Part shown: positions 17,165 through 31,416 of the stretch, in pieces
Numbering within the stretch: position 1 is the stretch's first letter
How the letters are laid out: every line of letters starts with the position of its first letter
Assembly: GCF_000380245.2 (NCBI RefSeq)
Contig: NZ_HG428741.1
Span: forward strand, 1,546,654-1,578,653
Direction: 5' to 3'
Source: Bacillus massiliigorillae
Lineage (GTDB): Bacteria; Bacillota; Bacilli; Bacillales; DSM-1321
DNA length: 32,000 nucleotides
Program-made: the position numbers and the translations under genes
Notes under the pieces: model-generated
Told to the model about the DNA's origin: nothing
Databases searched by the model: none
What the model saw: the letters and a program-made list of their open reading frames with translations, nothing else

Positions 17165-18214
17165 ATGTCGATATTTCGCATTAATAATGAAGCAAAACAG
17201 GCAAGAAACATAAGCAAGGAAAAGATGACTAAGTTATATGAAGTAAAGGGGAAAAATGTTCGGGTTGATTTTCTCGACGCAAGTTTTGGTGAATTAGATG
17301 GAAAGAAGATACCATTGGATGAGAGCGTGGTAACCCAGGCAACCAAACAGCTGTTAAAAGTCTTCTCAATAAATGAAACAAAATATAACCCAATTCCTGC
17401 TCACATCATCATTTCTAACAAGATGATAGAGGATAACCAATTTAATGGGAATTCGTCTGAAAGCGACTTCACTATTTCTGTTGCTGAACCTCGCTATTCT
17501 TTTTATGAAATATACCTACCAGCTAAAACAAAAAAGCAAATTATGACGGCTTTAACGATCCAAAAGCATAATGACAAGCTCCGTAATCAATGGGGATTAG
17601 AAACGATCCTTAAAGATGGACGAGCAGTCATATTGAACTTTTTCGGTTCACCAGGTACCGGGAAAAGCATGACTGCTGAAGCAATCGCTCATTATCTGGG
17701 CAAACAAGTAATTAATGTCAATTATGCACAGCTTGAGTCCAAATATGTTGGTGAAACACCAAAAAACATTAAAAGATACTTTACGGAAGCAACCGAAAAA
17801 AATGCTATTCTTATATTTGATGAAGCAGATTCCTTCCTTGGAAAAAGACTAACTAATGTAAGCCAGTCGGCCGATTATGGAGTGAATGTAACCCGAAGCG
17901 TTATGCTGATGGAATTGGAACAGTTTACAGGAGTTGTTATTTTTACGACGAACTTGCTTTCGAATTATGATCAGGCTTTCAAACGGAGAATTTTTGCCAA
18001 TATTGAATTTACCCAACCTGATCAAGAGGCAAGAGAGAAAATTTGGGATATTCATTTGCCGGAGAAGTTGCCAATTAAGGAAGGAATTACCGCCAATTTT
18101 CTGGCTGGGAAATTCGAGAATATCACCGGTGCTGATATCAAGGACATTGTTCTATATGCATCTATCAATTGCTTAGAGAGAGGCAGTGAAGTTATCCATT
18201 TAGAGGACTTTTAG
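17165..18214 (+). CDS. classic-clade AAA+ ATPase with ~130-aa unknown N-domain; in-frame TAG at 18212-18214, frame stays open to TGA 18326-18328
   Basis: AAGGAGG at 17152-17158. Walker A GSPGTGKS (17645-17668), Walker B ILIFDEAD, sensor-1 TTN and second-region-of-homology arginines FKRRI. The post-stop text EAYAYIIARYNN... looks like the end of the lid helix. Confidence 0.85.
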   Translation: MSIFRINNEAKQARNISKEKMTKLYEVKGKNVRVDFLDASFGELDGKKIPLDESVVTQATKQLLKVFSINETKYNPIPAHIIISNKMIEDNQFNGNSSESDFTISVAEPRYSFYEIYLPAKTKKQIMTALTIQKHNDKLRNQWGLETILKDGRAVILNFFGSPGTGKSMTAEAIAHYLGKQVINVNYAQLESKYVGETPKNIKRYFTEATEKNAILIFDEADSFLGKRLTNVSQSADYGVNVTRSVMLMELEQFTGVVIFTTNLLSNYDQAFKRRIFANIEFTQPDQEAREKIWDIHLPEKLPIKEGITANFLAGKFENITGADIKDIVLYASINCLERGSEVIHLEDF

Positions 18215-18340
18215 GAAGCGTATGCTTATATTATAGCCCGCTACAATAATGGCAATAATATCGAGATTAATTCGAAAATTATTTCTGAGGAACAATATAA
18301 AAAAGAAATGACTTTGGGTAAAGTCTGATGAGGTGCGGTT

Positions 18341-18997
18341 ATGATAACTAAACTTGTTCATTCCTATCAAAGTGCTAAACTGTCAGCTACAAAAAAGTTT
18401 TCTAATCATTGTTACGATATTTTGGAAGAGCCTGGATTTATGGATAATGGATATATCCGAGCGAAAATCAAGCAATTAAAAAAAGAATGTACCAATATAG
18501 AGAATGAAATAGAACTACTCCTTCAATATGATAAAAAGGATGAATACTATAAGCAAAAAGTGTCAGTTTTAATGGAAAATAGAGATTATATATTACATTA
18601 TCTTTCCTTTCTTTCATCCAACAGCTTTAACAGTCTGGAATACTCGATAAGCATGATTCAAAACATTCAAACAGATTTTTTTCTATGTTTGAATGCCCTA
18701 ATAAGTTATCAAAAGGGTGATGAAGAAAAGGCTTTAATGTTGTTTGAACAATATTTTGAAAAGTATCCAGAGCCAATAGAACACTTTTTAATTAACAAAA
18801 CTTATGGTGAGTTGCTTTTTAAACAAGATAACATCGAGAAAGCGGTGGCTCATCTAAGAAAAGCTACTGAAAAAAGACCCGAAGATGATGATGTCCATGT
18901 GATTCTTATTCAAGCATATCAAAAACTGGGTAACTATCATCAGGCTAAAATTCATGAAGATATCCAAAAGCTATTAGGTGGTGTGAATGATGACTGA
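18341..18997 (+). CDS. TPR-repeat protein (218 aa) with coiled-coil-like N-terminal half
   Basis: GAGGTG RBS. The C-terminal half shows TPR-like repeats (GDEEKALMLFEQYFEKYPE..., YGELLFKQDNIEKAVAHLRKATEKRPED..., ILIQAYQKLGNYHQA). Confidence 0.75.
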   Translation: MITKLVHSYQSAKLSATKKFSNHCYDILEEPGFMDNGYIRAKIKQLKKECTNIENEIELLLQYDKKDEYYKQKVSVLMENRDYILHYLSFLSSNSFNSLEYSISMIQNIQTDFFLCLNALISYQKGDEEKALMLFEQYFEKYPEPIEHFLINKTYGELLFKQDNIEKAVAHLRKATEKRPEDDDVHVILIQAYQKLGNYHQAKIHEDIQKLLGGVNDD

Positions 18998-19244
18998 TGT
19001 GAATTTTTTAAATAAGGACAACGGCATTTCTTCCACCCGGACCACGATTGGGAAAGGCAACGGTAAGGTGAGCTTAACCCAATATCATAACTCCACTAGA
19101 GGAGGCGTTACTTTTCGAAATTCTCAAATGACTTCTAGGGTGAACAACAAAGGGCAGTCGCTAAGCAGTGGTTTTAAAACAAACGGAAAAATGACTTACA
19201 TTGGAAGTAAGAACAAAGCTTCAAATACTATAGCTCCATTTTAA
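18987..19244 (+). CDS. small basic S/T/N/G/K-rich protein (85 aa), predicted disordered
   Basis: GGTGGTG RBS. Overlaps the TPR gene by 11 nt. No hydrophobic core (MMTDVNFLNKDNGISSTRTTIGKGNGKVSLTQYHNSTRGG...). Operon context supports translation. Confidence 0.55.
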   Translation: MMTDVNFLNKDNGISSTRTTIGKGNGKVSLTQYHNSTRGGVTFRNSQMTSRVNNKGQSLSSGFKTNGKMTYIGSKNKASNTIAPF

Positions 19245-19262
19245 AGATACGAGGTAACTAAA

Positions 19263-20069
19263 ATGATAGAAACCCATTTGTTTTCCCATCCGTTAGAAGA
19301 AACGGCATTTGATGAAGTAACTAAAACGGTAAATTTCAAAAGTGTACTTGAGGATCAATACATTCATTTTGAAGAGAAAAAGAGAAAACCCGATTTGTTA
19401 GGGAAGACAGTAAAAGTGAGTGAAAGGCAGTTTCCTGAAGTTTTTTACATAGTAAAAAAGATTGAACAGCGTACTAGGCTAAAGATGCCTGATATTTTTG
19501 TGTACGAAGACTTTTTTTATGCAATTGAAAGCAAAGGCATTGATAATCCGTGGATTGAGGTTTCGGCATCAATGATTACGGACTTTACAGAAAAAGAACT
19601 TGAATTTATGTTAGCAAGGGAAATTTGTAGAGTTTATTATAAGCATACCCACTATACTACATTAATGAATGAATCTCTTGAAATGTATGCAAAAGGTTTA
19701 ATTCCCTTTAGTAACGGTATTGTCGGAGATGTGGCTAAGGTCATTTTTTACAGATGGAACCGTCTAGCCAACTATTCGGCGGATTGTTTTGGCTATTTAA
19801 TCTGCATGGACCTGCATGCCTCAACAAAATCGATTCTTAAATGTGTGTTAAATAGTAAGTTTTTGGCTAACAATATCAATCTTGCAGAATACTTGAAACA
19901 AGCAGAAGCTATCAATGAGCTACATGATTCTGTTTACGAGTCAACAAAAATCGATGAACAATACCCTTATGGACCTTTTCGTATCAAGAATCTAATTGCC
20001 TTTGCTTCTTCAGAGAGAATGATACGGGCAAACAAACAACTTAAGAATTTTAAGGAGGTAGGACAATGA
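19263..20069 (+). CDS. M48-like (Zn-metallopeptidase fold) protein lacking the HExxH motif
   Basis: MPDIFVYEDFFYAIESKG...ELEFMLAREICRVYYKHTHY...WNRLANYSADCFG follows the M48 layout. However, REICR replaces HExxH, N replaces the third-ligand Glu, and there is no HExxH anywhere in the ORF. Confidence 0.6.
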   Translation: MIETHLFSHPLEETAFDEVTKTVNFKSVLEDQYIHFEEKKRKPDLLGKTVKVSERQFPEVFYIVKKIEQRTRLKMPDIFVYEDFFYAIESKGIDNPWIEVSASMITDFTEKELEFMLAREICRVYYKHTHYTTLMNESLEMYAKGLIPFSNGIVGDVAKVIFYRWNRLANYSADCFGYLICMDLHASTKSILKCVLNSKFLANNINLAEYLKQAEAINELHDSVYESTKIDEQYPYGPFRIKNLIAFASSERMIRANKQLKNFKEVGQ

Positions 20070-20422
20070 GTTTTCTAGCAGCATTAGGTTGGGTGTTATT
20101 GGGTGGAATAGTAACTGGAGGGTTGGTAACTTTCTGGGACGAAATCAGACAATGGTTGAATCAGGTAGCGGCTGATGCAGTGGAAAAGATGTTTGGTTAT
20201 AAAGCAAGGCAAACGATGCAACGGGCTGTAGTGAAAATTGACCGTGTAATGAGCAGCGTACGAAATACTTCGACCATTTATACAAAGAAGAATCCTTTGG
20301 ACTCATATATAGTTAAAACAGATGTAGTTGCCGAAGCATCGATTAGGGAAATCGACCAGCAAATTTTAGACGAAATTGAAAGGAAAAAGACACTTGTGCA
20401 AGAGTTTGAATACAAAGGATGA
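20066..20422 (+). CDS. single-pass membrane protein (118 aa)
   Basis: ATGA overlap with the upstream gene and AAGGAGG RBS. N-terminal TM segment FLAALGWVLLGGIVTGGLVTFW followed by a charged soluble domain. Confidence 0.7.
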   Translation: MSFLAALGWVLLGGIVTGGLVTFWDEIRQWLNQVAADAVEKMFGYKARQTMQRAVVKIDRVMSSVRNTSTIYTKKNPLDSYIVKTDVVAEASIREIDQQILDEIERKKTLVQEFEYKG

Positions 20423-20428
20423 TTGTAG

Positions 20429-22981
20429 ATGTTTAAAGTAAAGGAAATAAATGTAACTTCTATTGTCGATAAAGATCCTAATGTATATGTAATGAGAGCG
20501 GAAGATAATCTCAAATTACACAAATACCAGGAAGCATTGAGGGAAATGGATCAGGCGATAGAATATGCTCCTACTAATCAAAAAGAGAACTATGCCTTTG
20601 AAAAAATAAAAATACTTGATGTAATAGGTTGGCATTCCGATAGTGTTGACTTTATAAAAAAATATCTAAAAAGGTTTTATTCAGAGCTACCCTTATCTGA
20701 TTTCTATCGTGTTCTTCGTGTACTAAAAAAAAATAGTACATCTGATCTTTTCTCTATTCTTAAGCAAAATGGCATTCCAACCATATTGTTGGAAGTGTAC
20801 CAAAGTGAGCGGTCAGATGAAGCTTTCTTTAAACAAAAAGCCCGGGAGTATTTGAGTAAAGACCAATTTTCTAATGCATTTGCTATGACGAAGCTGATAA
20901 GTGAAAAGTCCGGGTTTGATTCAGATTTATGCCTTTTAAATGGACAAATTTATAAGGCACAAGGTACTTTTTCTGGAGCACTCTCCTACTTTTTGAAGGC
21001 AGCAGATTTCCGCGATCCACAATTAGAGGTTTTTATCGAAATTGCTGATACCTATGTCATTTTAGAAAAAATAAATGAGGCCCAGATCTGGATTGAAAAG
21101 GGGCTAGCTGCGTTCCCTTTCAATAACAAACTTTTACACTTTAATGCGAAACTTTATTATAGAAGTAATCAATATGATCTATGCTTATTAGTGTTAAACG
21201 ATATACTAAAAAAAGAACCTAATGACGCAGAAGCATTTTATATGAAAGGGTTAATTTACGATTATAGAAAAAGATATCTATTAGCAAATTCAAATTTTAA
21301 AAAAGCAAAAATTATAAACCCGAGCCTTAAGGAACCAGAGAACCGAGAAAAGAAACGATTCCTTCATCGGATGAAAATATTTGTTGTTAGTATAAGCATA
21401 GCTATATTACTATTGTTGATTGGGCAATTTGTACTATTTAAAACTGGAATGATCAAACCGATTGTGAAAGGGGCTATTCTTAAAACAGATGATATCCTCT
21501 TTTTAGGAAAAACGATGCAAATATACGATGACTATGACTACTTCCCTTCCTATGCAAAAAAGCCGAAAATGAAGTACAGGATTAAGGATCCTCATATTGC
21601 TAAAGTTAGTTCTTATGGAGAAATTAAGGGATTAAAGGTAGGTACCACATCTGTTCAATTACTTGAGGGAAATAGGGTTCTCGCCTCTTCTGAAATCAAG
21701 GTGGTTAAGCCAGAAGTTTTAGCAATAACAATTGAACTAACCAATAATAATTTAGTTGTCGGAGAAAAGGAAAAATTAACCACTAAAGTAGAAATGGATT
21801 ATGAAGATGCAGAAATCCCGAAAATTACATATAGCTCAAGTAATCCATCTGTTATTTCTGTTAATCAAGATGGAGAAATTGAGACACTAGATATAGGTGA
21901 GGCCACGATTAAAGCAAGCGTTGGTGGGAAAAGTTCTAGTTTTACAGTTCATTCATATGCCAAAGTGGATGAAATCCTCTTAGAAGATTTAATAGTGGAA
22001 ATTGGAAATTCTTTAACGTTAAAACCAACGGTAAAAACAACACCTGAAGATGGGGAAATCTATCCGTTAAAATATGAAACATTGGATAGCTCTATTGCCA
22101 CAGTAAATACTCATGGAGAAGTTACTGGCGTAAGTGCTGGTGAAGTTGAAATCGTTATATCTTCCTTTAATGGTGTGGAAAAAAGGGTCAAAGTTTTGGT
22201 TGAGATTAATAGTCCAAGTGATTTAACAGCAACGTTTGATATGGAAACTCAGACCATTCACTTAAACTGGGATTACGACTTTACTTCAAATGAAAGTGTA
22301 CAATTTGAATTGTCTGGAGCGATTGCTAATAATGATTACTCTGAAATACTCACCTCTAAAGAGACATCAGCTGAGTTTAAGGGGGTTTCTGGAGAGCAAT
22401 ATTCGTTTAGAGTTCAGGCAATAGTAGGTGATCGTATAAGTATGCCTGCATTCGTCTCATTGACCGTTCCCGAAATTTACAAAGAGGATAGTAATAACAT
22501 GGATTCTGACTCAAAGGTTTCAGATTCAAACTATGAAGAAGCTGAAGGGAGTAAGACCGTTTCTAAAACACCTGAAGAAATTCAAAAAGATAAAGATGTA
22601 GAAAACATGATAAAGCTTATGTCTAGTGTGGAGGGATATTGGAAAAATGCGAGCCCAAATGATAGTGATTATCGAGATCTTAAATATGCTCTCATAAGTA
22701 ATAGCTCTACAGAAAGTCGGAAGGATTCTTTTGGAGTATCATTACTTGCTAAAAGCTATTACGATGGAGTCGAAACCTCTTTTTGGGAATATGGTCTTCG
22801 ATCGAATTTGATTAAAATTGATGGAAATAAGCTAATTGATAGCGATGAAGACACAATGACAATCCATAATCCTAATATGTTTACAATAGAGATTAGCGGA
22901 AAGACATTAACCTTTATAAGATGCAAAAAAACTGATATCCCTAACGATTATCTTATAAATAGAACAGTTGAATTACCTTAA
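20429..22981 (+). CDS. 850-aa bitopic protein: N-terminal TPR region, one TM helix, three Big_2-like Ig domains, FN3-like domain, acidic linker, unknown C-terminal domain
   Basis: TPR-like text in aa 20-300. TM segment KIFVVSISIAILLLLIGQFVLF (nt ~21374-21442). Three repeats end ...SSNPSVISVNQDGEIETLDIGEATIKA, ...LDSSIATVNTHGEVTGVSAGEVEIVIS and ...IAKVSSYGEIKGLKVGTTSVQL. The FN3-like segment is PSDLTATFDMETQTIHLNWDY...YSFRVQAIV. Confidence 0.8.
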   Translation: MFKVKEINVTSIVDKDPNVYVMRAEDNLKLHKYQEALREMDQAIEYAPTNQKENYAFEKIKILDVIGWHSDSVDFIKKYLKRFYSELPLSDFYRVLRVLKKNSTSDLFSILKQNGIPTILLEVYQSERSDEAFFKQKAREYLSKDQFSNAFAMTKLISEKSGFDSDLCLLNGQIYKAQGTFSGALSYFLKAADFRDPQLEVFIEIADTYVILEKINEAQIWIEKGLAAFPFNNKLLHFNAKLYYRSNQYDLCLLVLNDILKKEPNDAEAFYMKGLIYDYRKRYLLANSNFKKAKIINPSLKEPENREKKRFLHRMKIFVVSISIAILLLLIGQFVLFKTGMIKPIVKGAILKTDDILFLGKTMQIYDDYDYFPSYAKKPKMKYRIKDPHIAKVSSYGEIKGLKVGTTSVQLLEGNRVLASSEIKVVKPEVLAITIELTNNNLVVGEKEKLTTKVEMDYEDAEIPKITYSSSNPSVISVNQDGEIETLDIGEATIKASVGGKSSSFTVHSYAKVDEILLEDLIVEIGNSLTLKPTVKTTPEDGEIYPLKYETLDSSIATVNTHGEVTGVSAGEVEIVISSFNGVEKRVKVLVEINSPSDLTATFDMETQTIHLNWDYDFTSNESVQFELSGAIANNDYSEILTSKETSAEFKGVSGEQYSFRVQAIVGDRISMPAFVSLTVPEIYKEDSNNMDSDSKVSDSNYEEAEGSKTVSKTPEEIQKDKDVENMIKLMSSVEGYWKNASPNDSDYRDLKYALISNSSTESRKDSFGVSLLAKSYYDGVETSFWEYGLRSNLIKIDGNKLIDSDEDTMTIHNPNMFTIEISGKTLTFIRCKKTDIPNDYLINRTVELP

Positions 22982-23710: not shown

Positions 23711-24230
23711 TTAAGCAACATCTTGGAATGATGTTTTGTTTTTCAAAAGAGCGTAAATCCAATGTAAAAGCTTGTTAGCACAGGCAATAATGGATACTCG
23801 ATAAGGTTTGCCTTCTTCACGTTTTTTATCGTAGAACTCACGTAATCTCTTATTTCTAGGGATAATTTCTTTGGTCGTTCGGGTTTTGCGTGCATCTCTA
23901 ATAGGCACAACGGACGGATGTGAATAGGGCATGTCTAAGCCTGCTGGAACCCCTTTTTGTGATACGATTGTTAGTACCTTTAAAAGTACCAGATTCAAAT
24001 ACACTAGGGTCAATTCCTGCGAAGGCAACTAATTTTTTAGGGTGATTAAACCGGTCTATTTCTCCAATTTCAGAAATAATCGTTGCCGCGATTTTTTCAC
24101 CGATGCCAGGAATGGATTGGATAATCTTATATTCTTCTATATTTTTTACTAAAGCATCTATCTCTTCTTCAAGCTTGGATAGGTGCTTTATATATTCAAG
24201 AAGTATTTCGATAAGCACCTCTAAACAAAT
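23711..24230 (-). pseudogene. C-terminal half of an IS110-family transposase, frameshifted and 5'-truncated
   Basis: ...IIQSIPGIGEKIAATIISEIGEIDRFNHPKKLVAFAGIDPSVFESGTFKG...KRGSSRLRHAL. After a frameshift near 23920 it reads ...NKRLREFYDKKREEGKPYRVSIIACANKLLHWIYALLKNKTSF. The N-terminal DEDD domain is absent. The upstream boundary is approximate. Confidence 0.75.
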
Positions 24231-25720
24231 TAAGTGACTATGATTTGAACCTCTCATGACTAAAGTCACGAGATTCTTGGGAATAGAGCATACTTGTTAG
24301 CTTATTTCTTTACCAACAGAGGTTTCTCTTATTGACCAAGCTATCCCCGTAGTTCCAACGGTTTTTATTAATCTTAGCTCATACAAGAGCTTGTATTTTA
24401 AGACCTTCGGTCAAAATATTCTTGCTACCATTTATGTCTCGGTCATGATGAGTATGACAAATAGGATAATTCCATTTTCGAATGTGGAGATTTTTCTTGC
24501 CATCTTGATGCCCACATTCCGAACAGATTTGACTAGACGGAAACCATTGATCTACTTTGAGATTTCACGTCCATACCAATCAGCTTTGTATTGTAGCTTT
24601 GAAACAAAAATAGACCATGACACGTCTGAGATACTCTTTGCTAGTTTATGATTACGTAACATACCTTTCGTGTTTAAATCCTCTATACAAATAATATCGT
24701 GATTTTTGATAATGTTTGTACTCCATTTATTCAGAAAGTCATTACGTTGATTTAGTACTTTTTCGTGCAATCGAGCCACTTTTAGCTTTTGTTTCTGATA
24801 ATTTTTCGCTTCAAAAAGAGTAATGTCACTTTTTTGAGCAACTAATGCACGTCTGGATAATTTACGTTGTTCACGTTTCAATTTCTTTTCCATTTTGGAA
24901 GTGAATCTATTGTTATTAATCTTACTTCCGTCAGAAAGAATAGCAAAATCAGCGATACCTAAATCTATCCTAATTACAGAATTTATTTTTGTAAGTTCTT
25001 GGATTTCTTCTTCGCAAAGAATAGATACAAAGAATTTACCACTACCATTTTTACGAATGGTTGCATGTAAAATGCGCCCTTTCAGTTCTTGGCTTTTAGC
25101 AAACTTGACTAATCCAAGTTTAGGAAGTTTTATCGAATTTCCTAAAACAGCAATATTATGATTAGTGAATTGTGTTGTATAACTTTGAACAGGGTTCTTT
25201 TTACTCTTGAATCGAGGTTGCTGATTTTGTTTCTTAAAAAAACGAGAAAAAGAATCAGCAAGATTTTTCAGAGAAGATTGAAGAGCAATGCTATCCACTT
25301 CTTTCAACCAATTAGTCGATTCATCTTTCTTCATTTTGGGAAGCATAGAAGAACAAGAATGGTAAGATAAGCCTTTCCCATTCTTGAAATATTCTTTGTT
25401 CCATAGATTTAAAAAGTGGTTATAGACAAATCTTGAGCAACCAATCGTTTTAGTTATAAGGATTTCTTGATTTTGATTGGGATAGATTCTGAATTTATAG
25501 GCTTTGTGCCGTAGCATTGCATTCACCTCATCTCTTTTTCTGATTTTGAATATACTTACGAATCTGTACTTCTGTATTCTCACTTACAGTAGCAATAATA
25601 TAACTAGGATTCTATAGTTCATTTTTATACTTAAAGTAACATAAGTCGGTAGATTAATATAGCTAAAGCTATACTTCAACCGAAGCCGATTCATCTACAC
25701 GACTGAAGTCGCGAGTATTC
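24231..25720 (-). mobile_element. IS200/IS605-family tnpB-only element (IS1341-like) abutting the IS110 fragment; ends approximate
   Basis: Contains a near-full-length tnpB. There is a structured region downstream of its stop (24270-24378, sharing GAGATTCTTGGGAA with the 14.5 kb copy). A left-end-like hairpin is present at about 25690-25730: AGCCGA...TCGGCT with an inner CGAC-TTCA-GTCG, read on the minus strand. Confidence 0.65.
24379..25517 (-). pseudogene. tnpB: TnpB (RNA-guided nuclease of IS605 family) with one frameshift near 24553
   Basis: Probable start [18 protein letters not shown] (ATG 25515-25517, GAGGTG RBS). RuvC-I is IRIDLGIAD. The ORF stops at ...WYGREISK*, but the shifted frame continues [49 protein letters not shown]...* (stop 24379-24381). 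Confidence 0.8.
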
Positions 25721-25820
25721 TCGGCTATTTGATAAAAGCAAGTTACAAAAAAAGTTCTCTAATCAAGTGTCAGAAGAATTTCGGAAGCAAGATAGTACAA
25801 CAAGTAAGATAGAAAGAACA

Positions 25821-26630
25821 GTGAACTACCCATCACTTAACAGCCCTTACGGGCTTGTTTGAAGCGGGGGCTTCTCAGGTAATAGGTACTTTTACTAGCT
25901 ACCCAAATTGACCGAGCTAACTCCCTTGTTCAGAAAGGTTATATATGTATATCTTTCTATTCTAACGCCAATAGGCGTATGGCTTCATTCTTGATATTGA
26001 TTGCAGCGTTGTGATCACGTTCCATAATAGAGCCACAAGAACATTCATATGTACGTACAGACATAGGCATCTCTTTTTTATTTCCGCAACAAGAGCACGT
26101 TTGAGTAGAAGGAAACCACTTATCAACTTTGATAAGTTTCTTTCCTTGCTCTTCTAGTTTGTAAGTTAAGTAGGTTGTGAACATAACCCAATCATTGTCT
26201 GCAACGCTTTTGCCGAATTTTAACGCACGAGACATCCCTTTCATATTCAAATCTTCGACTGCAACGGCATCGAACACTGTTGCTAATTCTTTGGATTTGT
26301 GATGAAGGGAATTTTTACGTTGGTTAGCTACTTTTTCGTGTAATTTTGCAACAAAAAGACGTTGTTTTTTCCAACGTTCAGAACCTTTGATTCTTCTCGA
26401 TAATACTCTTTGTGCCTTTGTTAGGCGGTCCATTATTTGGCGAAAAAACGAGGGTAGTTGGCTTTCTTACCTTCGTTATCTACATATAATTCAGCCATCG
26501 CAAAGTCTAGTCCAACCACTTTTTCTAATTTGGGTTACACTATTTGTTTTTCATATAATGATTGTGATTAAAGATAAAATAGTAATTGTAACTTTGCTTG
26601 ATGGCGCAGAAGTTGAATGTTAAATTTAAT
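25821..26630 (-). mobile_element. tnpB: third TnpB element remnant: 5'-truncated, frameshifted tnpB plus conserved right end
   Basis: ORF 25957-26433 encodes ...EDLNMKGM...KVDKWFPSTQTCSCCGNKKEMPMSVRTYECSCGSIMERDHNAAINIKNEA. Upstream, EKVVGLDFAMAELYVDNEGKKANYPRFF lies in another frame, implying a shift in a T6 run near 26440. The N-terminus is lost. Nucleotides 25821-25935 are homologous to 14481-14600. Confidence 0.8.
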
Positions 26631-26730
26631 AAAGGCAAATGGGATTTCTGAACCATAGAAAATTAAAAATTGAGGAAACCCAATCGAGTTTCCTTATTTC
26701 TTATTCAATTATCAATATTCAAATTTAACG

Positions 26731-27054
26731 GAGCCTATTAATAATGAGGGCACAATAAATGGACTTGAAATATATGGAGCATATGAAAATGGGGATCTTA
26801 TTGGCGTCATAGCAACAAGAAGCGAGGGCAGCTCTATTGTATTATTCTTTGTACATGGAAAATACCAAAGGAAAGGAATAGGGCGGAAGTTATTTGAAGT
26901 GGTTCTGAAAAAATAGCACCTCAGAATTAATCACTGTAAATTCATCACCTTATGCAACAGAGATATTCATAAACTTGGATTTGTAGATACCGATATAGAA
27001 CAGACAAAGGAAGGTATGAGATTCACACCAATGAAGCACCAAAAATGGGTATAA
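26731..27054 (+). pseudogene. GNAT-family N-acetyltransferase fragment (N-terminally truncated, internal TAG and frameshifts)
   Basis: ...GLEIYGAYENGDLIGVIATRSEGSSIVLFFVHGKYQRKGIGRKLFEVVLKK* carries the acetyl-CoA motif Q/RxxGxG. The downstream pieces ...ELITVNSSPYATE... and ...KLGFVDTDIEQTKEGMRFTPM... are in shifted frames. Confidence 0.65.
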
Positions 27055-27277
27055 TACTAAATTAACAAATTTCAATTTGTCTAATAGATAAAGGATAATA
27101 GAGTTGAGGAAGCGTTTGTTCTGCCGGATGGGAATGAGATGAAAACTGAAAATGATTGTAAATATCAGGATAATAACAGAGAAGAGTGAAAATACACTAT
27201 TTTTAAAGATATTATCTGAAGAAAAATGTCATAACAGTAAGTAATAGTAGTGATTTTTTCAGTTTAGGAGAGTAGAA

Positions 27278-30200
27278 ATGACAAACATAGAGAAGAAGAA
27301 AGTACTTGAAATACTTGATTTTTGGAAGACGATAGAACTTTTAAATCAAGTAGATATCCCACAGGAGAGTGAAGACAATAAGAAAGTAGTAAAAAAGATT
27401 ACAAGAGGTGAACTGATTGATAGTAGTTTGGACAAGATTTCAATATTTACCAGTCTAAACGTGCCTTCGATTGATCTTTCTGATAAATTAAAAACCGACA
27501 AGGAGAAATTTTCTCGATTTCCTGGCGAGGGGGCAGATTTGTCATTCCTTTTTGGTAGAATTAAAAGGAATGACATGGTTGATTATCTTGCTAAATTTGT
27601 GAAGAATCATGATGAACAGCCAGACATAGCCTATCCGAAAAGAAGCGAGATTGCATGGTTCTCATTTAAAACTGATTCGGAAGGCATTTATCAGAAGAAT
27701 TCATTCCAGCTATCTCCACTTTTGTGGGCTATTTCTGTATGGAATAAAAAAGTCAATGGATTTTCTTTGAACTCGATTGATTATGATGATGAGACCAAAA
27801 AGTATGACAGTTGGCTTCAGGAAGCAGAGGAGTTATTTGCTGTATTGCCTTCTGTGTTTTCAGATATTCATAATTCATATGTGAAGACAATAACGCCGGA
27901 ACTTCCTGCTGATTATATAGGACTCTTTATCTATGACAGATACAAGAATGATGAGGCAAAGGATAAAGACGAAAATCCAGAAGATTATGCAAGTTTAGGT
28001 AAGAGCTTTTTTTTGGATGATATCGTTTTGCTCATAGATGAAATCAAAGCAGGAAAATTTGGAGAGGGTTCTGATTATGAGCGTAAAGTGATAAATTATA
28101 TTTTGTCTGCACATAATAAAACTGCAGGAATTATTCCAGCAAATTGTATATCTATTTCTCCAAAGGAAGAGCGTCAGAAGATGATGAATTTCTTTCAAAA
28201 TACCCTTAATATCAAAAATGCTCCACTAGGAAAGTGGCCTGCTAAATTCATGCCTGCTCTTATGCAACAGGTGGCAGTGAATCTTGCGATAGATGAAAAA
28301 GCACACACGGAAGTATTTTCTGTTAATGGTCCTCCTGGCACCGGAAAGACAACACTTCTCAAAGAAATCGTATCTAGCAATATAGTAAAAAGAGCTGAGC
28401 TGTTAGCGGAAGCGGCACATTCAGATCCGGACGATGCTTATGAGAGGTGTTCATTTACACAGGGACCGTTGGTTAGTAAGGGATATTTTCAGTATGCACC
28501 ATCTTATTTTAAGCTGAAGAATGATAAAATCAATCAATATGGAATGTTAGTGGCATCATGTAATAATTCGGCTGTTGAAAATATCACTGCAGACCTTCCT
28601 AAAAGTGATGACATTCTCAAGAGTCTTGAACCTTCAAAAGATGATGATGTATCGGTGGCGTCAGGATTGAATGAAGTTCATGATTTGTTTGACGTCGAAA
28701 AATCAGAAGATATTGAGCAAATAAAGATATCTGGTGAAATAAAAGAAGTGCGTGATATTTATTTCACGCGCTATGCTAATAAACTCCTAAATAGAAATGA
28801 CTGCTGGGGTCTTGTATCAGCTCCGTTTGGAAAACGTGCTAATATAAACAAGTACTGTGTATCTGTACTTAAAAAGTTTATTAACGATTATAAGCTTAAC
28901 AATGTGCGTGAGAAACATCGAAAGAAATATGTAGAGCAGAGAGAATGCTTTCTTAGACAGCTTAAGATTGTGAAAGAACTTGAGAAAGAGTTGGAAATCC
29001 TGTGTGACTATGCAAAGTCTTTGCCATTGACTAATGAGAATATTTCTGAGGATGATCTTGATAGAAAAATAAAAGAAAATTATGCATATGTAATGGAACT
29101 TGAGGAATCAAGACCTAGGGGATTATTCGGAAGATTGAAGAAAGATTCTACACGAGACAATTTGATATCAGAGAAAAAGATTGAGATCGAAGTTTTGAAA
29201 AAGCAAAAAGACGGTCTTTCAAAAATTGCTAGCTATCATAATCTTTTAAGCAGACATAGCGAAGGTGCTGAGAAGCTTACTCCTATTGATTCATCTTTTA
29301 TGGATAGATATGTATCGCTTGATGAGAGAGCATCAACGTGGGCACAGGATACAAATCCTTGGTTTACAGAGCATTACAACAGGGAGCGTGAAAAGCTGTT
29401 CTTGTATGCTTGTAAACTTCATAAGGAATTTGTAATTTCCTCTAAATCGTTTAGGCAAAATGTAATCAATCTTTTGATCGCATGGGATATGTATGATGAT
29501 TGTGATGAACGTATGGGTGAGAAAGACAGAATAGATGCCTTCCCAGCATTGATTCAGAATGTATTTCTCATTACCCCGGTTATATCAACTACATTTGCGT
29601 CTGCACAGACCTTCTTACGTGATATAAAGAGTCCGGGTACCCTTGGAACGCTTATTGTGGATGAAGCAGGGCAGGCACAACCTCAGATGGCGGTTGGAGC
29701 TTTGATGCGATGCAGAAGAGCTATAATTGTTGGAGATCCTAAGCAAATTGAGCCGGTTGTGACGGAAGAAACAGACATGATTAAAAGTCTTCTTACATCT
29801 GATTTACTTACACCATATAAGGACAAGAAAATATCTGTACAAGGCTTTGCTGATTATATTAATAGCTATGGCACTTTTCTTGGAGAAGATGAAGAAAAAG
29901 AGTGGGTTGGATGTCCGCTTACTGTACATAGACGTTGTATAGATCCGATGTATAGCATATCAAATCACCTTTCTTATGAAGACACTATGAAACAGCAGAC
30001 AGCACCACCAAAGGAAAACGCTGTGAAGACCTTTATCTTGGATAAGTCATATTGGATAAATGTTAAAGGTGAGGAACAGTCCGGCAATAAGAACCATTAT
30101 GTACCGTCACAAGGTCAGATTGTTCTAAAGCTTCTCGAAGAAAAATTCAAGAAAGACAGTAGTAATATACCGAAATTGTTTATTATTACACCATTCACGT

Positions 30201-30772
30201 CCGTGAAGAAGGGAATGATTGATGCACTAAGCAAATCGGATTTCTATAGACGTGAACCACGTGTAAGAAAATGGTTAAAAGATAAAAATATCGGAACTGT
30301 TCATACATTCCAAGGACAAGGAACAGATGAGGTTATATTCTTGCTTGGTTGCGATAAATCATCTGTAAAGGCGGCAAACTGGGTAAATAAAAATATTGTG
30401 AATGTGGCAGCCACAAGAGCTAAATACCGTCTATATATTATAGGAGACAAGGAAGTATGGAGTTGTAAGCCTGTGAAAGTTGCACGCGATACAGTTAATA
30501 ATGAGATATCATCGGATAATTTGATGACAATGCTATCAGGTTTTGAAAATACAGAGTCAGTTCTGGCACCTGCAATTCAAACTGCTGAAGTCAAAAAAAT
30601 GGAATTTACAACACAGGAAAAGAAGCGCGAGGTAGCGACTTTATCGGGAAACATATCAAAGGTCTGCCCGAAATGCGGAAAACCGCTTGTAGAACGAAAA
30701 AGTGAGTATGGAGTTTTTTATGGATGTAAAGGGTTTCCTAAGTGTAGATATACTGAGAGTACTAAGAAATAA
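27278..30772 (+). CDS. 1164-aa SF1 helicase of the Upf1/Dna2-like (AAA_11/AAA_12) type with unknown ~340-aa N-domain, coiled-coil insertion and C-terminal topoisomerase-type C4 zinc ribbon
   Basis: GGAG RBS. Walker A GPPGTGKTT (28328-28354), motif II DEAGQ (29660-29674), VGDPKQIEPV, HTFQGQGTDEVIF and VAATRAKYRLYIIG. Zinc ribbon CPKCGKPLVERKSEYGVFYGCKGFPKC (30665-30745). Confidence 0.9.
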   Translation: MTNIEKKKVLEILDFWKTIELLNQVDIPQESEDNKKVVKKITRGELIDSSLDKISIFTSLNVPSIDLSDKLKTDKEKFSRFPGEGADLSFLFGRIKRNDMVDYLAKFVKNHDEQPDIAYPKRSEIAWFSFKTDSEGIYQKNSFQLSPLLWAISVWNKKVNGFSLNSIDYDDETKKYDSWLQEAEELFAVLPSVFSDIHNSYVKTITPELPADYIGLFIYDRYKNDEAKDKDENPEDYASLGKSFFLDDIVLLIDEIKAGKFGEGSDYERKVINYILSAHNKTAGIIPANCISISPKEERQKMMNFFQNTLNIKNAPLGKWPAKFMPALMQQVAVNLAIDEKAHTEVFSVNGPPGTGKTTLLKEIVSSNIVKRAELLAEAAHSDPDDAYERCSFTQGPLVSKGYFQYAPSYFKLKNDKINQYGMLVASCNNSAVENITADLPKSDDILKSLEPSKDDDVSVASGLNEVHDLFDVEKSEDIEQIKISGEIKEVRDIYFTRYANKLLNRNDCWGLVSAPFGKRANINKYCVSVLKKFINDYKLNNVREKHRKKYVEQRECFLRQLKIVKELEKELEILCDYAKSLPLTNENISEDDLDRKIKENYAYVMELEESRPRGLFGRLKKDSTRDNLISEKKIEIEVLKKQKDGLSKIASYHNLLSRHSEGAEKLTPIDSSFMDRYVSLDERASTWAQDTNPWFTEHYNREREKLFLYACKLHKEFVISSKSFRQNVINLLIAWDMYDDCDERMGEKDRIDAFPALIQNVFLITPVISTTFASAQTFLRDIKSPGTLGTLIVDEAGQAQPQMAVGALMRCRRAIIVGDPKQIEPVVTEETDMIKSLLTSDLLTPYKDKKISVQGFADYINSYGTFLGEDEEKEWVGCPLTVHRRCIDPMYSISNHLSYEDTMKQQTAPPKENAVKTFILDKSYWINVKGEEQSGNKNHYVPSQGQIVLKLLEEKFKKDSSNIPKLFIITPFTSVKKGMIDALSKSDFYRREPRVRKWLKDKNIGTVHTFQGQGTDEVIFLLGCDKSSVKAANWVNKNIVNVAATRAKYRLYIIGDKEVWSCKPVKVARDTVNNEISSDNLMTMLSGFENTESVLAPAIQTAEVKKMEFTTQEKKREVATLSGNISKVCPKCGKPLVERKSEYGVFYGCKGFPKCRYTESTKK

Positions 30773-30858
30773 AGCTATCCATTAAGACTTCTCGATATGT
30801 TTGGCCAAACGTAGACATACCAAATGAAGTCTCGTGCCATGTGGAATGTATAACCACT

Positions 30859-30899
30859 ATCAAATAGCGATGCAAATTCTGTATGCATCGCTATTTGAT
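30859..30899 (+). terminator. 16-bp perfect hairpin 87 nt downstream of the helicase stop; right copy of the 14066 repeat pair
   Basis: ATCAAATAGCGATGCA (30859-30874) pairs with TGCATCGCTATTTGAT (30884-30899). The downstream T-run is weak, so terminator function is uncertain. Confidence 0.45.
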
Positions 30900-31374: not shown

Positions 31375-31416
31375 TGACAGGGATGAGGGTTTGGGGTTCG
31401 AATCCCTCTCGGGTCA
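31375..31416 (+). other. tRNA 3'-end-like remnant (T-arm plus acceptor 3' strand), no complete tRNA
   Basis: TGGGG-TTCGAAT-CCCTC (31392-31408) resembles a T-arm with the canonical TTCGAAT loop. It is followed by TCGGGTC-A. No complementary 5' acceptor strand (GACCCGA) was seen in the ~65 nt upstream that I read through (31320-31385), and there is no encoded CCA. Confidence 0.45.

What the first reader, a model, noticed from the sequence alone, without database searches (positions are those of the whole stretch)
27278..30772. Stand-alone 1164-aa Upf1/Dna2-like SF1 helicase with uncharacterised N-domain, coiled-coil insertion and topoisomerase-type zinc ribbon
Seen: a complete SF1 motif set is present (GPPGTGKTT, DEAGQ, VGDPKQIEPV, HTFQGQG, VAATRAKYRLYIIG). 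About 340 N-terminal residues show no motif I can place. A long charged or coiled-coil insertion lies between motifs I and II (aa ~540-700). There is a C-terminal CxxC...CxxxxC ribbon like zf-C4_Topoisom. The gene sits alone between a GNAT pseudogene and repeats. Its codon usage looks different from the neighbouring core genes by eye, with frequent AAG, CTT and GAT where xfp and nupC use AAA and TTA. Established: large solitary Upf1/Dna2-like helicases fused to extra domains include known single-gene anti-phage proteins (for example staphylococcal Nhi and Mokosh helicases). Inference: this is a horizontally acquired single-gene immunity or mobile-element maintenance helicase. I see no PLD HxK motif. 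Only a weak PD-(D/E)xK-like string is present (LDDIVLLIDEIK, nt ~28010-28050), and it cannot be judged by eye.
Basis: partly seen in the sequence, partly recalled or inferred. Interest (0 to 1): 0.7.

Follow-up and report, generated by a model that had tools for sequence, protein, structure and literature searches.

The report
Mobile Mokosh-like helicase lacking its nuclease
This is an intact, recently transferred single gene for a large Upf1-type helicase; it resembles the helicase of the Mokosh type II anti-phage system but has a zinc ribbon where Mokosh has its essential nuclease, and it starts with a 340-residue domain of unknown fold, so it is a plausible but untested new variant of bacterial immunity.

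Summary
The ORF (27278-30772, +, 1164 aa) is real. The best match in any library is PADLOC MkoC (Mokosh type II, E 8e-61). That match covers only the helicase part of the profile, and no PLD motif or domain is present. Nhi is not a relative: it is 606 aa with a DUF2075 helicase and a PD-(D/E)xK nuclease. The suspected PD-(D/E)xK string here is not conserved. Residues 1-340 fold confidently (pLDDT 85) but match nothing in PDB or BFVD. This domain occurs in only 448 of 1.84 billion protein clusters, always at the N-terminus. Relatives carry different C-termini: zinc ribbon, no tail, a tail with an invariant RNxxxH (HEPN-like) motif, or rarely NERD. The gene plus about 120 nt upstream and 75 nt downstream is 93-98% identical in Metabacillus, Sutcliffiella and a Niallia plasmid. 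There the GC content is foreign to the flanks, dS is 0.04-0.14 and dN/dS about 0.3. No partner gene is conserved, and defence genes are frequent but not universal neighbours. Verdict: a horizontally mobile, PLD-less Mokosh-like helicase, probably a single-gene defence. The function is inferred, not shown.

The parts
27159..27277 (+). Upstream non-coding part of the transferred cassette. It holds promoter-like sites (27146-27174, 27186-27215) and an AGGAGAG ribosome-binding site 8 nt before the ATG.
   Evidence: This is the left limit of the 93-98% nucleotide identity to L001, L014 and L098. The consensus promoter matches are no more frequent than in shuffled sequence, so promoter function is inferred only.
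27278..30772 (+). Complete CDS of 1164 aa: a Upf1-like SF1B helicase of the MkoC-like lineage.
   Evidence: dN/dS is 0.25-0.37 against four near-identical copies.
27278..28297 (+). N-terminal domain (aa 1-340), an alpha/beta fold with no known relative. Invariant residues are W16, E20, Q24, R97, Y138, S146, W150, P316, W320 and P321. It ends in the GKWP...MQQxAVN motif that leads into motif I.
   Evidence: The model has pLDDT 85 and pTM 0.80. The best Foldseek hit is E 0.88 in PDB and 0.038 in BFVD, none at E <= 0.001. A profile search finds only 448 clusters, always N-terminal.
28298..28687 (+). First part of RecA1 (aa 341-470), with Walker A GPPGTGKT at nt 28328-28351.
28688..29572 (+). Insertion in RecA1 (aa 471-765): a small beta unit (1B-like), a long antiparallel helical stalk (helices 541-581, 591-610, 624-658) and a helical 1C-like part.
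   Evidence: Secondary structure of the full model. The stalk is variable and its tip has indels. There is a weak coiled-coil Pfam hit at aa 629-662.
29573..29917 (+). Second part of RecA1 (aa 766-880), with motif II DEAGQ (nt 29660-29674) and motif III VGDPKQ (nt 29729-29746). This is the most conserved segment.
   Evidence: Mean entropy is 0.71 bits.
29918..30532 (+). RecA2 (aa 881-1085), with HTFQGQG (nt 30302-30319) and motif VI VAATRAK (nt 30404-30424).
   Evidence: Pfam AAA_12. Foldseek superposes it on Dna2 and Upf1 at 5-6 A over about 380 columns.
30533..30661 (+). Disordered, fast-evolving linker (aa 1086-1128).
   Evidence: pLDDT is below 50 for aa 1089-1127. Entropy is 3.0 bits with 37% gaps.
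30662..30769 (+). Topoisomerase-I-type C4 zinc ribbon (aa 1129-1164; C1130, C1133, C1150, C1156).
   Evidence: Pfam PF01396, E 3e-13, 49.8 bits against a cut-off of 32. The cysteines are invariant or nearly so. The model shows three strands.
30773..30845 (+). Downstream non-coding part of the transferred cassette. Identity to all other copies stops at about 30845.
30859..30899 (+). Perfect 16-bp inverted repeat just outside the shared cassette. It is probably the local terminator supplied by the host locus.
   Evidence: The terminator rule did not call it because no T-run follows.

Best explanation
The gene encodes a self-contained, horizontally mobile helicase of the Upf1-like SF1B class, from the lineage that PADLOC models as MkoC (Mokosh type II). 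It differs from Mokosh at both ends. In place of the C-terminal PLD nuclease it has a flexible linker and a topoisomerase-I-type zinc ribbon. At the N-terminus it has a 340-residue domain found only in this clade. It most likely acts as a single-gene defence against phages or other invading replicons. Inferred steps: the tethered zinc ribbon captures single-stranded DNA exposed in replication, rolling-circle or transcription intermediates. The motor then moves 5'->3' on the strand using ATP, unwinding the intermediate or stripping proteins from it. The N-domain, packed on the motor, gates this activity by sensing a ligand or protein linked to infection. No nuclease is recognisable, so interference would come from the motor itself or from host nucleases acting on the unwound substrate. 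Shown here: the domain anatomy, intact motifs, purifying selection, recent transfer between genera and onto a plasmid, absence of a conserved partner, and modular C-termini in relatives. Inferred: the substrate, the polarity, the gating role and the defence phenotype.
For: Anatomy and class:
- All SF1 motifs are intact, with Pfam AAA_11, AAA_12 and Zn_ribbon_Top1.
- The best model in any library is MkoC: E 8e-61, 204 bits, query aa 307-1085.
- The full model (pLDDT 84, pTM 0.78) is closest to SETX/Sen1, Aquarius, Dna2, Upf1, IGHMBP2 and ZNFX1 (E down to 3.6e-14).

Mobility and selection:
- The cassette window 27104/27159-30845 is 93-98% identical to Metabacillus indicus, Sutcliffiella horikoshii and metagenome contigs.
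- The protein is 94.5% identical to one on a Niallia circulans plasmid.
- Cassette GC is 36% against flanks of 44% (chromosomes) and 29-30% (plasmid).
- dS is 0.04-0.14 and dN/dS 0.25-0.37.
- TTA codon use is off-core.

Defence-type company:
- L009 is a dense island with Abi_2, toxin-antitoxin, SIR2, AAA_15+RloB and AbiH.
- L001 has MutH-like/Vsr/Dcm genes and an SNF2-PLD gene.
- The Niallia plasmid has TIR and DUF3800 genes.
- The Vibrio plasmid has AbiH, a P-loop NTPase fold protein and a GIY-YIG nuclease.
- Among 138 immediate neighbours, PADLOC hits include WYL 5, mad3 3, IetA 2, AbiEi 2, PDC-M39A/B 2 each and GajB 2.

Modularity typical of defence proteins: the same N-domain plus helicase carries a Zn ribbon (89 sequences), no tail (56), a 270-330 aa tail with invariant RNxxxH (about 50), or rarely NERD, DEAD/Helicase_C, VWA or Sel1.

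The family is rare and patchy: 448 clusters of 1.84 billion.
Against: - No defence phenotype has been tested for any member of this clade.
- Mokosh needs its PLD active site to defend, and this protein has no PLD or any other recognisable nuclease.
- Several loci show no defence neighbours. One example is the spoIVA/serpin locus of Acetatifactor-like genomes. Immediate neighbours also include housekeeping genes such as groESL, queA-type genes and ispD.
- The count of PADLOC hits among neighbours has no matched control.
- The window itself has no certain defence system next to the gene. The nearest candidate is an IetA-like ATPase 9 kb upstream.
- A 30%-identical PLD-less relative sits in the transfer region of 542 Klebsiella conjugative plasmids. 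That hints at a plasmid-biology role for part of the wider superfamily.
Confidence: 0.5

Rival explanations
1. It is a nuclease-helicase after all. The N-terminal domain would be a nuclease of an unrecognised fold, so the protein would degrade invading nucleic acid in the way Nhi, Dna2 or Mokosh do.
For: Single-protein helicase defences described so far pair the motor with a nuclease. The N-domain is confidently folded, under purifying selection (dN/dS 0.19-0.58) and present in every member, including those with no C-terminal module. It has an invariant E20 and a D248 conserved in at least 90% of relatives, plus R97, Y138 and S146.
Against: No nuclease fold was found by Foldseek in PDB or BFVD, nor by profile search of PDB sequences. 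Only one invariant acidic residue (E20) and one nearly invariant one (D248) are present. The PD-(D/E)xK-like string is not conserved. Some relatives add a separate NERD or HEPN-like module, which would be redundant if the N-domain were the effector.
Confidence: 0.2
2. It is an accessory nucleic-acid-metabolism helicase carried by mobile elements for their own benefit (replication restart, R-loop or primer removal, conjugative DNA processing), not an immune protein.
For: One copy is on a plasmid. Distant PLD-less relatives are common on conjugative plasmids and lie inside the tra region in Klebsiella. In some loci the gene sits next to the edge of a conjugative element. The Zn ribbon is typical of DNA-processing enzymes.
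Against: The transferred unit is the gene alone, without replication, partition or transfer genes. In chromosomes it lies at unrelated sites, for example right after groESL in Sutcliffiella. Relatives fused to HEPN-like, NERD or Sel1 modules fit immunity better than housekeeping for a replicon. The family is nearly absent from phage genomes.
Confidence: 0.2
3. It is a decaying remnant of a Mokosh type II gene that lost its PLD nuclease and no longer has a function.
For: The MkoC profile is matched only over positions 231-971 of 1136. The Niallia plasmid copy has a frameshifted, half zinc ribbon.
Against: The reading frame is intact over 1164 codons in five copies, with dN/dS 0.25-0.37. All catalytic motifs are invariant across 52-62 relatives. 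The Zn-ribbon form is the commonest C-terminal form in the sequences examined (89), so it is an established architecture and not an accident.
Confidence: 0.04
4. It is a housekeeping helicase of the host, an orthologue of a core repair or RNA-decay helicase.
For: Within one group of Lachnospiraceae the gene keeps the same position between spoIVA and a serpin gene.
Against: The distribution is patchy: 448 clusters in 1.84 billion, and near-identical copies occur in different genera with foreign GC. No curated NCBIfam equivalog is reached (best 58.9 bits against a cut-off of 348.9). Neighbourhoods vary.
Confidence: 0.02

Closest known systems
Mokosh type II (MkoC), Millman et al. 2022
   Same: Both are large single polypeptides of comparable size (EcMokosh II is 132 kDa). 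Both have a Upf1-like (COG1112) SF1 helicase. MkoC is the best-scoring model (E 8e-61). The region just before motif I (GKWP...MQQxAVN) is shared with other MkoC-like proteins. Both occur as stand-alone genes in variable, often defence-rich contexts.
   Different: Mokosh II is defined by a C-terminal PLD nuclease whose active site is required for defence. Here profile positions 972-1136 are unmatched, there is no HxKx4D motif and no PLDc Pfam hit. A linker and a Zn ribbon take that place. The first 300 or so residues form a domain that HMMER finds in only 448 clusters, far fewer than expected if the reportedly widespread Mokosh proteins shared it.
Mokosh type I (MkoA helicase-kinase + MkoB PLD nuclease)
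   Same: The helicase core is related (MkoA models at E 1.5e-28 and 4.3e-13). One relative (P0041) has a Ser/Thr kinase gene 4 nt downstream.
   Different: This protein has no kinase domain, and no PLD gene or other conserved partner lies next to it.
Nhi (nuclease-helicase immunity, SERP2475 of Staphylococcus epidermidis)
   Same: Both are single-gene proteins with an SF1B-type helicase, and both are spread by horizontal transfer, partly on plasmids.
   Different: Nhi is 606 aa, with a DUF2075 (PF09848) helicase and a conserved N-terminal PD-(D/E)xK nuclease. Here PF09848 scores 14.1 bits against a cut-off of 24, over the P-loop only. The protein is twice as long and no PD-(D/E)xK motif is conserved.
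Eukaryotic Upf1-like helicases and Dna2 (SETX/Sen1, Aquarius, Upf1, IGHMBP2, ZNFX1, Dna2)
   Same: These are the closest solved structures. They share two RecA domains with a 1B/stalk insertion in RecA1 (E 3.6e-14 to 2e-7), which implies 5'->3' translocation on a single strand.
   Different: Sequence similarity is marginal (best E 1.9e-6). This protein has no CH domain, no Dna2 nuclease and no Fe-S cluster. Its stalk is much longer, and it adds a bacterial Zn ribbon and an unrelated N-domain.

Membership tests
Upf1-like SF1B helicases (Pfam AAA_11 + AAA_12) | Complete SF1 motif set (I, II DExx, III, V, VI) in two RecA domains | tested here: met
   The motifs lie at aa 351, 795, 818, 1009 and 1043. 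AAA_11 scores 57.9 bits and AAA_12 55.3 bits, both above the cut-off of 27.
Upf1-like SF1B helicases (Pfam AAA_11 + AAA_12) | 1B/stalk/1C insertion inside RecA1 and overall fold like Upf1, Sen1 or Dna2 | tested here: met
   The full model has pLDDT 84. The Foldseek top hits are SETX, Aquarius, Sen1, Dna2, Upf1 and IGHMBP2.
Upf1-like SF1B helicases (Pfam AAA_11 + AAA_12) | 5'->3' ATP-dependent translocation or unwinding | not testable with these tools
   This needs biochemistry.
Mokosh type II (MkoC) | Upf1-like/COG1112 helicase matching the MkoC model | tested here: met
   PADLOC PDLC03924, E 8.1e-61, 204 bits, query aa 307-1085 against profile positions 231-971 of 1136.
Mokosh type II (MkoC) | C-terminal PLD-family nuclease with HxKx4D active site, required for defence | tested here: not met
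   There is no H.K....D anywhere in the protein and no PLDc Pfam hit at E <= 1. Profile positions 972-1136 are unmatched in this protein and in 7 relatives.
Mokosh type II (MkoC) | Protects against phage when expressed | not testable with these tools
   This needs a phage challenge.
Mokosh type I (MkoA/MkoB) | Helicase protein carries a Ser/Thr kinase domain, and a separate PLD nuclease gene lies adjacent | tested here: not met
   There is no Pkinase hit. The flanks hold a GNAT pseudogene, IS remnants and small ORFs.
Nhi | DUF2075 (PF09848) helicase domain | tested here: not met
   PF09848 scores 14.1 bits against a cut-off of 24, over aa 345-410 only.
Nhi | Conserved N-terminal PD-(D/E)xK nuclease | tested here: not met
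   In the candidate string (aa 246-257) only D248 is conserved. Foldseek finds no nuclease fold.
Dna2-type nuclease-helicase | N-terminal PD-(D/E)xK nuclease with Fe-S cluster ahead of the SF1B motor | tested here: not met
   Only the motor aligns with Dna2 (384 columns). The N-domain has no invariant cysteines and no Dna2 or Cas4-type Pfam hit.
Topoisomerase-I-type C4 zinc ribbon (PF01396) | Four cysteines in CxxC...CxnC spacing and a match above the Pfam cut-off | tested here: met
   The cysteines are C1130, C1133, C1150 and C1156. The match scores 49.8 bits against a cut-off of 32. They are invariant or nearly so in Zn-ribbon relatives.
Hhe / ProA / PLuB helicase-type defence proteins (NCBIfam) | Score above the curated cut-off | tested here: not met
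   Scores are 23.5 against 2000, 30.7 against 1500 and 36.8 against 999.

The most novel reading that the evidence does not exclude
The clade is a new kind of single-protein immunity in which no nuclease is needed. A previously unseen 340-residue fold would sense infection and release a Upf1-like motor that, anchored to ssDNA by a tethered zinc ribbon, itself aborts phage or plasmid replication. Exchangeable C-terminal modules (Zn ribbon, HEPN-like, NERD) would tune the output. Alternatively, the N-domain could be a nuclease of a new fold.
Probability: 0.3. Interest if true: 0.75.

Novelty: new variant of a known kind. Interest (0 to 1): 0.5.

Why it matters
Automated tools that rely on the MkoC profile could label proteins like this one as Mokosh type II, even though the nuclease that Mokosh needs is missing. 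If this clade defends, it would show that the Mokosh-type helicase can work with other outputs, or with none. It would also assign a role to a confidently folded domain that has no structural relative in PDB or BFVD. The very recent spread of a bare 3.7-kb gene between Bacillaceae genera and a plasmid is also a clean example of how single-gene accessory functions move without their own mobility genes.

Tried and rejected
- **PD-(D/E)xK string at aa 246-257:** rejected, because only D248 is conserved.
- **PLD motif or domain:** none found. In long-tailed relatives, H.K....D appears in only 4 of about 50, which looks like chance.
- **Nhi kinship:** rejected after reading the Nhi preprint.
- **Fold of the N-domain:** Foldseek against PDB and BFVD and a profile search of PDB sequences gave nothing.
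- **Curated names:** no NCBIfam model is reached for this protein or for five relatives.
- **Conserved partner gene:** none among 138 immediate neighbours.
- **Flanking direct or inverted repeats, tRNA genes or Rfam families that could mark an integration module:** none. There is only a weak T-loop-like 13-mer at 31394-31406 (E 0.19).
- **Phage origin:** only 5 weak hits in 50,697 phage records and 8 in IMG/VR.
- **HEPN assignment of the long C-terminal tail of relatives:** it rests on the invariant RNxxxH motif only. Pfam and a PDB profile search gave no match.
- **Search for a true PLD-bearing MkoC on plasmids for direct comparison:** the five plasmid relatives opened were all PLD-less or ended straight after the helicase.
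- **Failed or empty look-ups:** the first cluster look-up timed out. The exact product of the window gene is not on record in the contig index.


Full report
**Observation.** The quoted motifs are present at aa 351 (GPPGTGKT), 795 (DEAGQ), 818 (VGDPKQ), 1009 (HTFQGQ) and 1043 (VAATRAK). The cysteine pairs are at 1130/1133 and 1150/1156, and there is no HxKx4D motif. Pfam gives AAA_11 (aa 333-829), AAA_12 (881-1058) and Zn_ribbon_Top1 (1129-1164, 49.8 bits against a cut-off of 32). No Pfam, NCBIfam, PHROG or PADLOC model covers residues 1-306. The GNAT pseudogene upstream is real. Further upstream lie decayed IS110 and TnpB genes. The 'repeats' downstream reduce to one perfect 16-bp hairpin. 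No tRNA gene or Rfam family lies in the window. The codon-usage impression is partly right. TTA makes up 12% of Leu codons against 46-60% in eight core genes. AAG makes up 45% of Lys codons against 9-40%. GC3 is 0.31 against 0.19-0.30. GAT is not enriched.

**Anatomy.** An AlphaFold2 model built on 52 relatives is confident (pLDDT 84, pTM 0.78). It shows, in order:
- an N-terminal alpha/beta domain (aa 1-340);
- the first half of RecA1;
- a small beta unit followed by a very long helical stalk (helices 541-581, 591-610, 624-658) and further helices up to aa 765;
- the rest of RecA1, then RecA2;
- a disordered linker (aa 1089-1127);
- a three-stranded zinc ribbon.

Foldseek places the whole model next to SETX/Sen1, Aquarius, Dna2, Upf1, IGHMBP2 and ZNFX1 (E 3.6e-14 to 2e-7). 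It is therefore a Upf1-like SF1B helicase, and the 'insertion' is the usual 1B/stalk/1C element, only longer. The N-domain modelled alone is also confident (pLDDT 85, pTM 0.80). It has no match in PDB (best E 0.88, TM at most 0.16), in BFVD (best E 0.038, none at E <= 0.001) or in a profile search of PDB sequences. Its invariant residues are W16, E20 and Q24 (one face of helix 1), R97, Y138, S146 and W150, plus the GKWP...MQQxAVN motif that leads into motif I. In the suspected PD-(D/E)xK string only D248 is conserved. Conservation is highest in the motor (0.4-1.2 bits). It is patchy in the N-domain, where aa 25-82 and 158-214 are variable. It is low in the stalk tip and the linker.

**Family.** A word-indexed search gave 2053 relatives. 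Three are at 87-98% identity and all others at about 60% or less, mostly from Clostridia. The N-domain aligns in most of the 120 listed hits. A profile of the N-domain, run against 1.84 billion cluster representatives, found only 448 proteins at E <= 1e-3. In all of them the domain starts at the N-terminus, mostly of 1000-1600 aa proteins, with the rest looking like fragments. Profile-profile comparison shows that the C-terminal two-thirds of the domain is distantly related to the short N-terminal region of a 964-aa Staphylococcus simulans protein (95% probability). That protein is itself MkoC-like and PLD-less. Within the N-domain family the C-terminus is modular:
- zinc ribbon in 89 sequences;
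- essentially no tail in 56;
- a 270-330 aa tail in about 50;
- rarely NERD, DEAD/Helicase_C, VWA or Sel1 modules.

The long tail has invariant W-W and R-N-x-x-x-H residues. RNxxxH is the signature of HEPN RNases (established knowledge). No Pfam or PDB match backs this, so it stays a motif-level inference.

**Mobility.** An exact match of the NupC protein points to Bacillus massiliigorillae as the source of the window. Nucleotide identity of 93-98% to Metabacillus indicus, Sutcliffiella horikoshii and metagenome contigs is confined to about 27104/27159-30845. That span is the gene plus about 120-175 nt upstream and 75 nt downstream, and it contains no mobility gene. A copy with a 94.5% identical protein lies on a 182-kb Niallia circulans plasmid. 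The cassette has 36% GC in every host, while the flanks have 44% (Metabacillus and Sutcliffiella, left flanks) or 29-30% (plasmid). Between hosts dS is 0.04-0.14 and dN/dS is 0.25-0.37, with no stop codon in five copies. The gene is therefore functional and was exchanged recently between genera. It is almost absent from phage genomes: 5 weak hits in 50,697 records and 8 loci in IMG/VR.

**Context.** There is no conserved partner. In 35 species-level loci the 138 nearest ORFs hit 165 Pfam families, none more than three times. Several contexts are clearly defence islands:
- Abi_2, toxin-antitoxin, SIR2, AAA_15+RloB and AbiH in L009;
- MutH-like/Vsr/Dcm genes plus an SNF2-PLD gene in Metabacillus;
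- TIR and DUF3800 on the Niallia plasmid;
- AbiH, a P-loop NTPase fold protein and a GIY-YIG nuclease on a Vibrio plasmid.

Among the 138 neighbours, PADLOC models hit WYL regulators (5), mad3 (3), IetA (2), AbiEi (2), PDC-M39A/B (2 each) and GajB (2). I could not run a matched control for these counts. Other loci are plain: after groESL in Sutcliffiella, and between spoIVA and a serpin gene in Acetatifactor-like genomes. In the window itself the gene stands alone. The nearest candidate defence gene is an IetA-like AAA+ ATPase 9 kb upstream.

**Comparison with known systems.**
- **Mokosh type II.** The best model in any library is PADLOC MkoC (E 8e-61). The match covers profile positions 231-971 of 1136 in this protein and stops before position 985 in all relatives tested. 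[quoted passage not shown] That defining feature was tested here and is absent, so the protein should not be filed as Mokosh. It is a PLD-less relative of its helicase.
- **Mokosh type I.** It needs a kinase domain and a separate PLD gene, neither of which is present.
- **Nhi.** Neither feature is met here.
- **NCBIfam.** No model is reached.
- **Plasmids.** PLD-less MkoC-like helicases turn out to be common there. They include a 1113-aa protein in the transfer region of 542 Klebsiella plasmids.

**Mechanism.** Shown here are an intact SF1B motor under purifying selection, a tethered ssDNA-type zinc ribbon, a clade-specific N-domain, modular C-termini in relatives, and single-gene transfer. 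From established knowledge of Upf1-like helicases (5'->3' movement on one strand) and of topoisomerase-I zinc ribbons (ssDNA binding), I infer the following. The ribbon captures exposed ssDNA of replication or rolling-circle intermediates. The motor unwinds or clears them. The N-domain gates the motor. It may be relevant that the one Mokosh II tested in a recent panel protected only against an ssDNA phage and was monomeric. I put the defence reading at about 0.5. The main rivals are that the N-domain is a cryptic nuclease (0.2) and that the protein serves mobile elements rather than the host (0.2). Decay (0.04) and housekeeping (0.02) are nearly excluded.

**Novelty and limits.** This is a new variant of a known kind: Mokosh-type helicase chemistry in a different package, with a domain of unknown fold. 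Nothing here shows a phenotype. I could not inspect model coordinates to see whether the invariant N-domain residues form a pocket. I could not search AlphaFold DB, run DefenseFinder or PADLOC as whole programs, or obtain a verified PLD-bearing MkoC for direct comparison.

Noticed in passing
window 17165-22981 (+): Five co-directional ORFs form a cluster: an AAA+ ATPase (349 aa) matching PADLOC IetA (E 3e-28), a TPR protein (218 aa), two ORFs with no family (268 and 118 aa), and a TPR + Big_2 protein (850 aa). There is no IetS-type protease. Codon usage is also off-core. IetA-like genes are immediate neighbours of the helicase family in 2 of 35 other loci.
   Followed up: partly
window 23711-26433 (-): Decayed insertion sequences: IS110-family transposase fragments and two TnpB/OrfB_IS605 fragments, one lacking and one retaining the Cas12f1-like TNB domain.
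   Followed up: partly
window 26730-27040 (+): A GNAT acetyltransferase pseudogene (motif QRKGIGRKLF, in-frame stop and frameshift). It is shared with metagenome contigs L003 and L004 but not with the other hosts of the cassette.
   Followed up: yes
window 31394-31406 (+): A T-loop-like GGTTCGAATCCCT with a weak match to the 3' end of tmRNA (E 0.19). It could be a remnant of an integration site, but no full tRNA or tmRNA gene lies in the window.
   Followed up: partly
relatives P0106-P0120, P0124 and others; alignment A7: Long-form relatives (1400-1580 aa) carry a 270-330 aa C-terminal tail with invariant WW and RNxxxH residues, a HEPN-like signature. No Pfam or PDB match supports it.
   Followed up: partly
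L105-L107, gene 4 nt downstream of the helicase (e.g. L105:11652-12758): In the P0041 group a Ser/Thr protein kinase gene and a 158-aa ORF follow the helicase directly. This recalls the kinase domain of Mokosh type I MkoA.
   Followed up: no
L099:3284-6625 (Klebsiella pneumoniae IncFIB plasmid) and 541 similar records: A 1113-aa PLD-less, Zn-ribbon-less relative (about 30% identity) sits between traG and a lytic transglycosylase gene in conjugative Klebsiella plasmids.
   Followed up: partly
L098:12001-15453 (Niallia circulans plasmid): The plasmid copy ends early, at 1150 aa. It keeps only the first CxxC of the zinc ribbon, so the ribbon is probably dispensable or this copy is impaired. The last 79 codons are also the fastest-evolving part of the gene.
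   Followed up: partly
L093-L097, ORF overlapping the helicase stop (e.g. L093:11843-12412): In the P0117 group a 189-aa ORF overlaps the helicase 3' end by 34 nt, and a conjugative element is inserted just beyond it in some strains.
   Followed up: no
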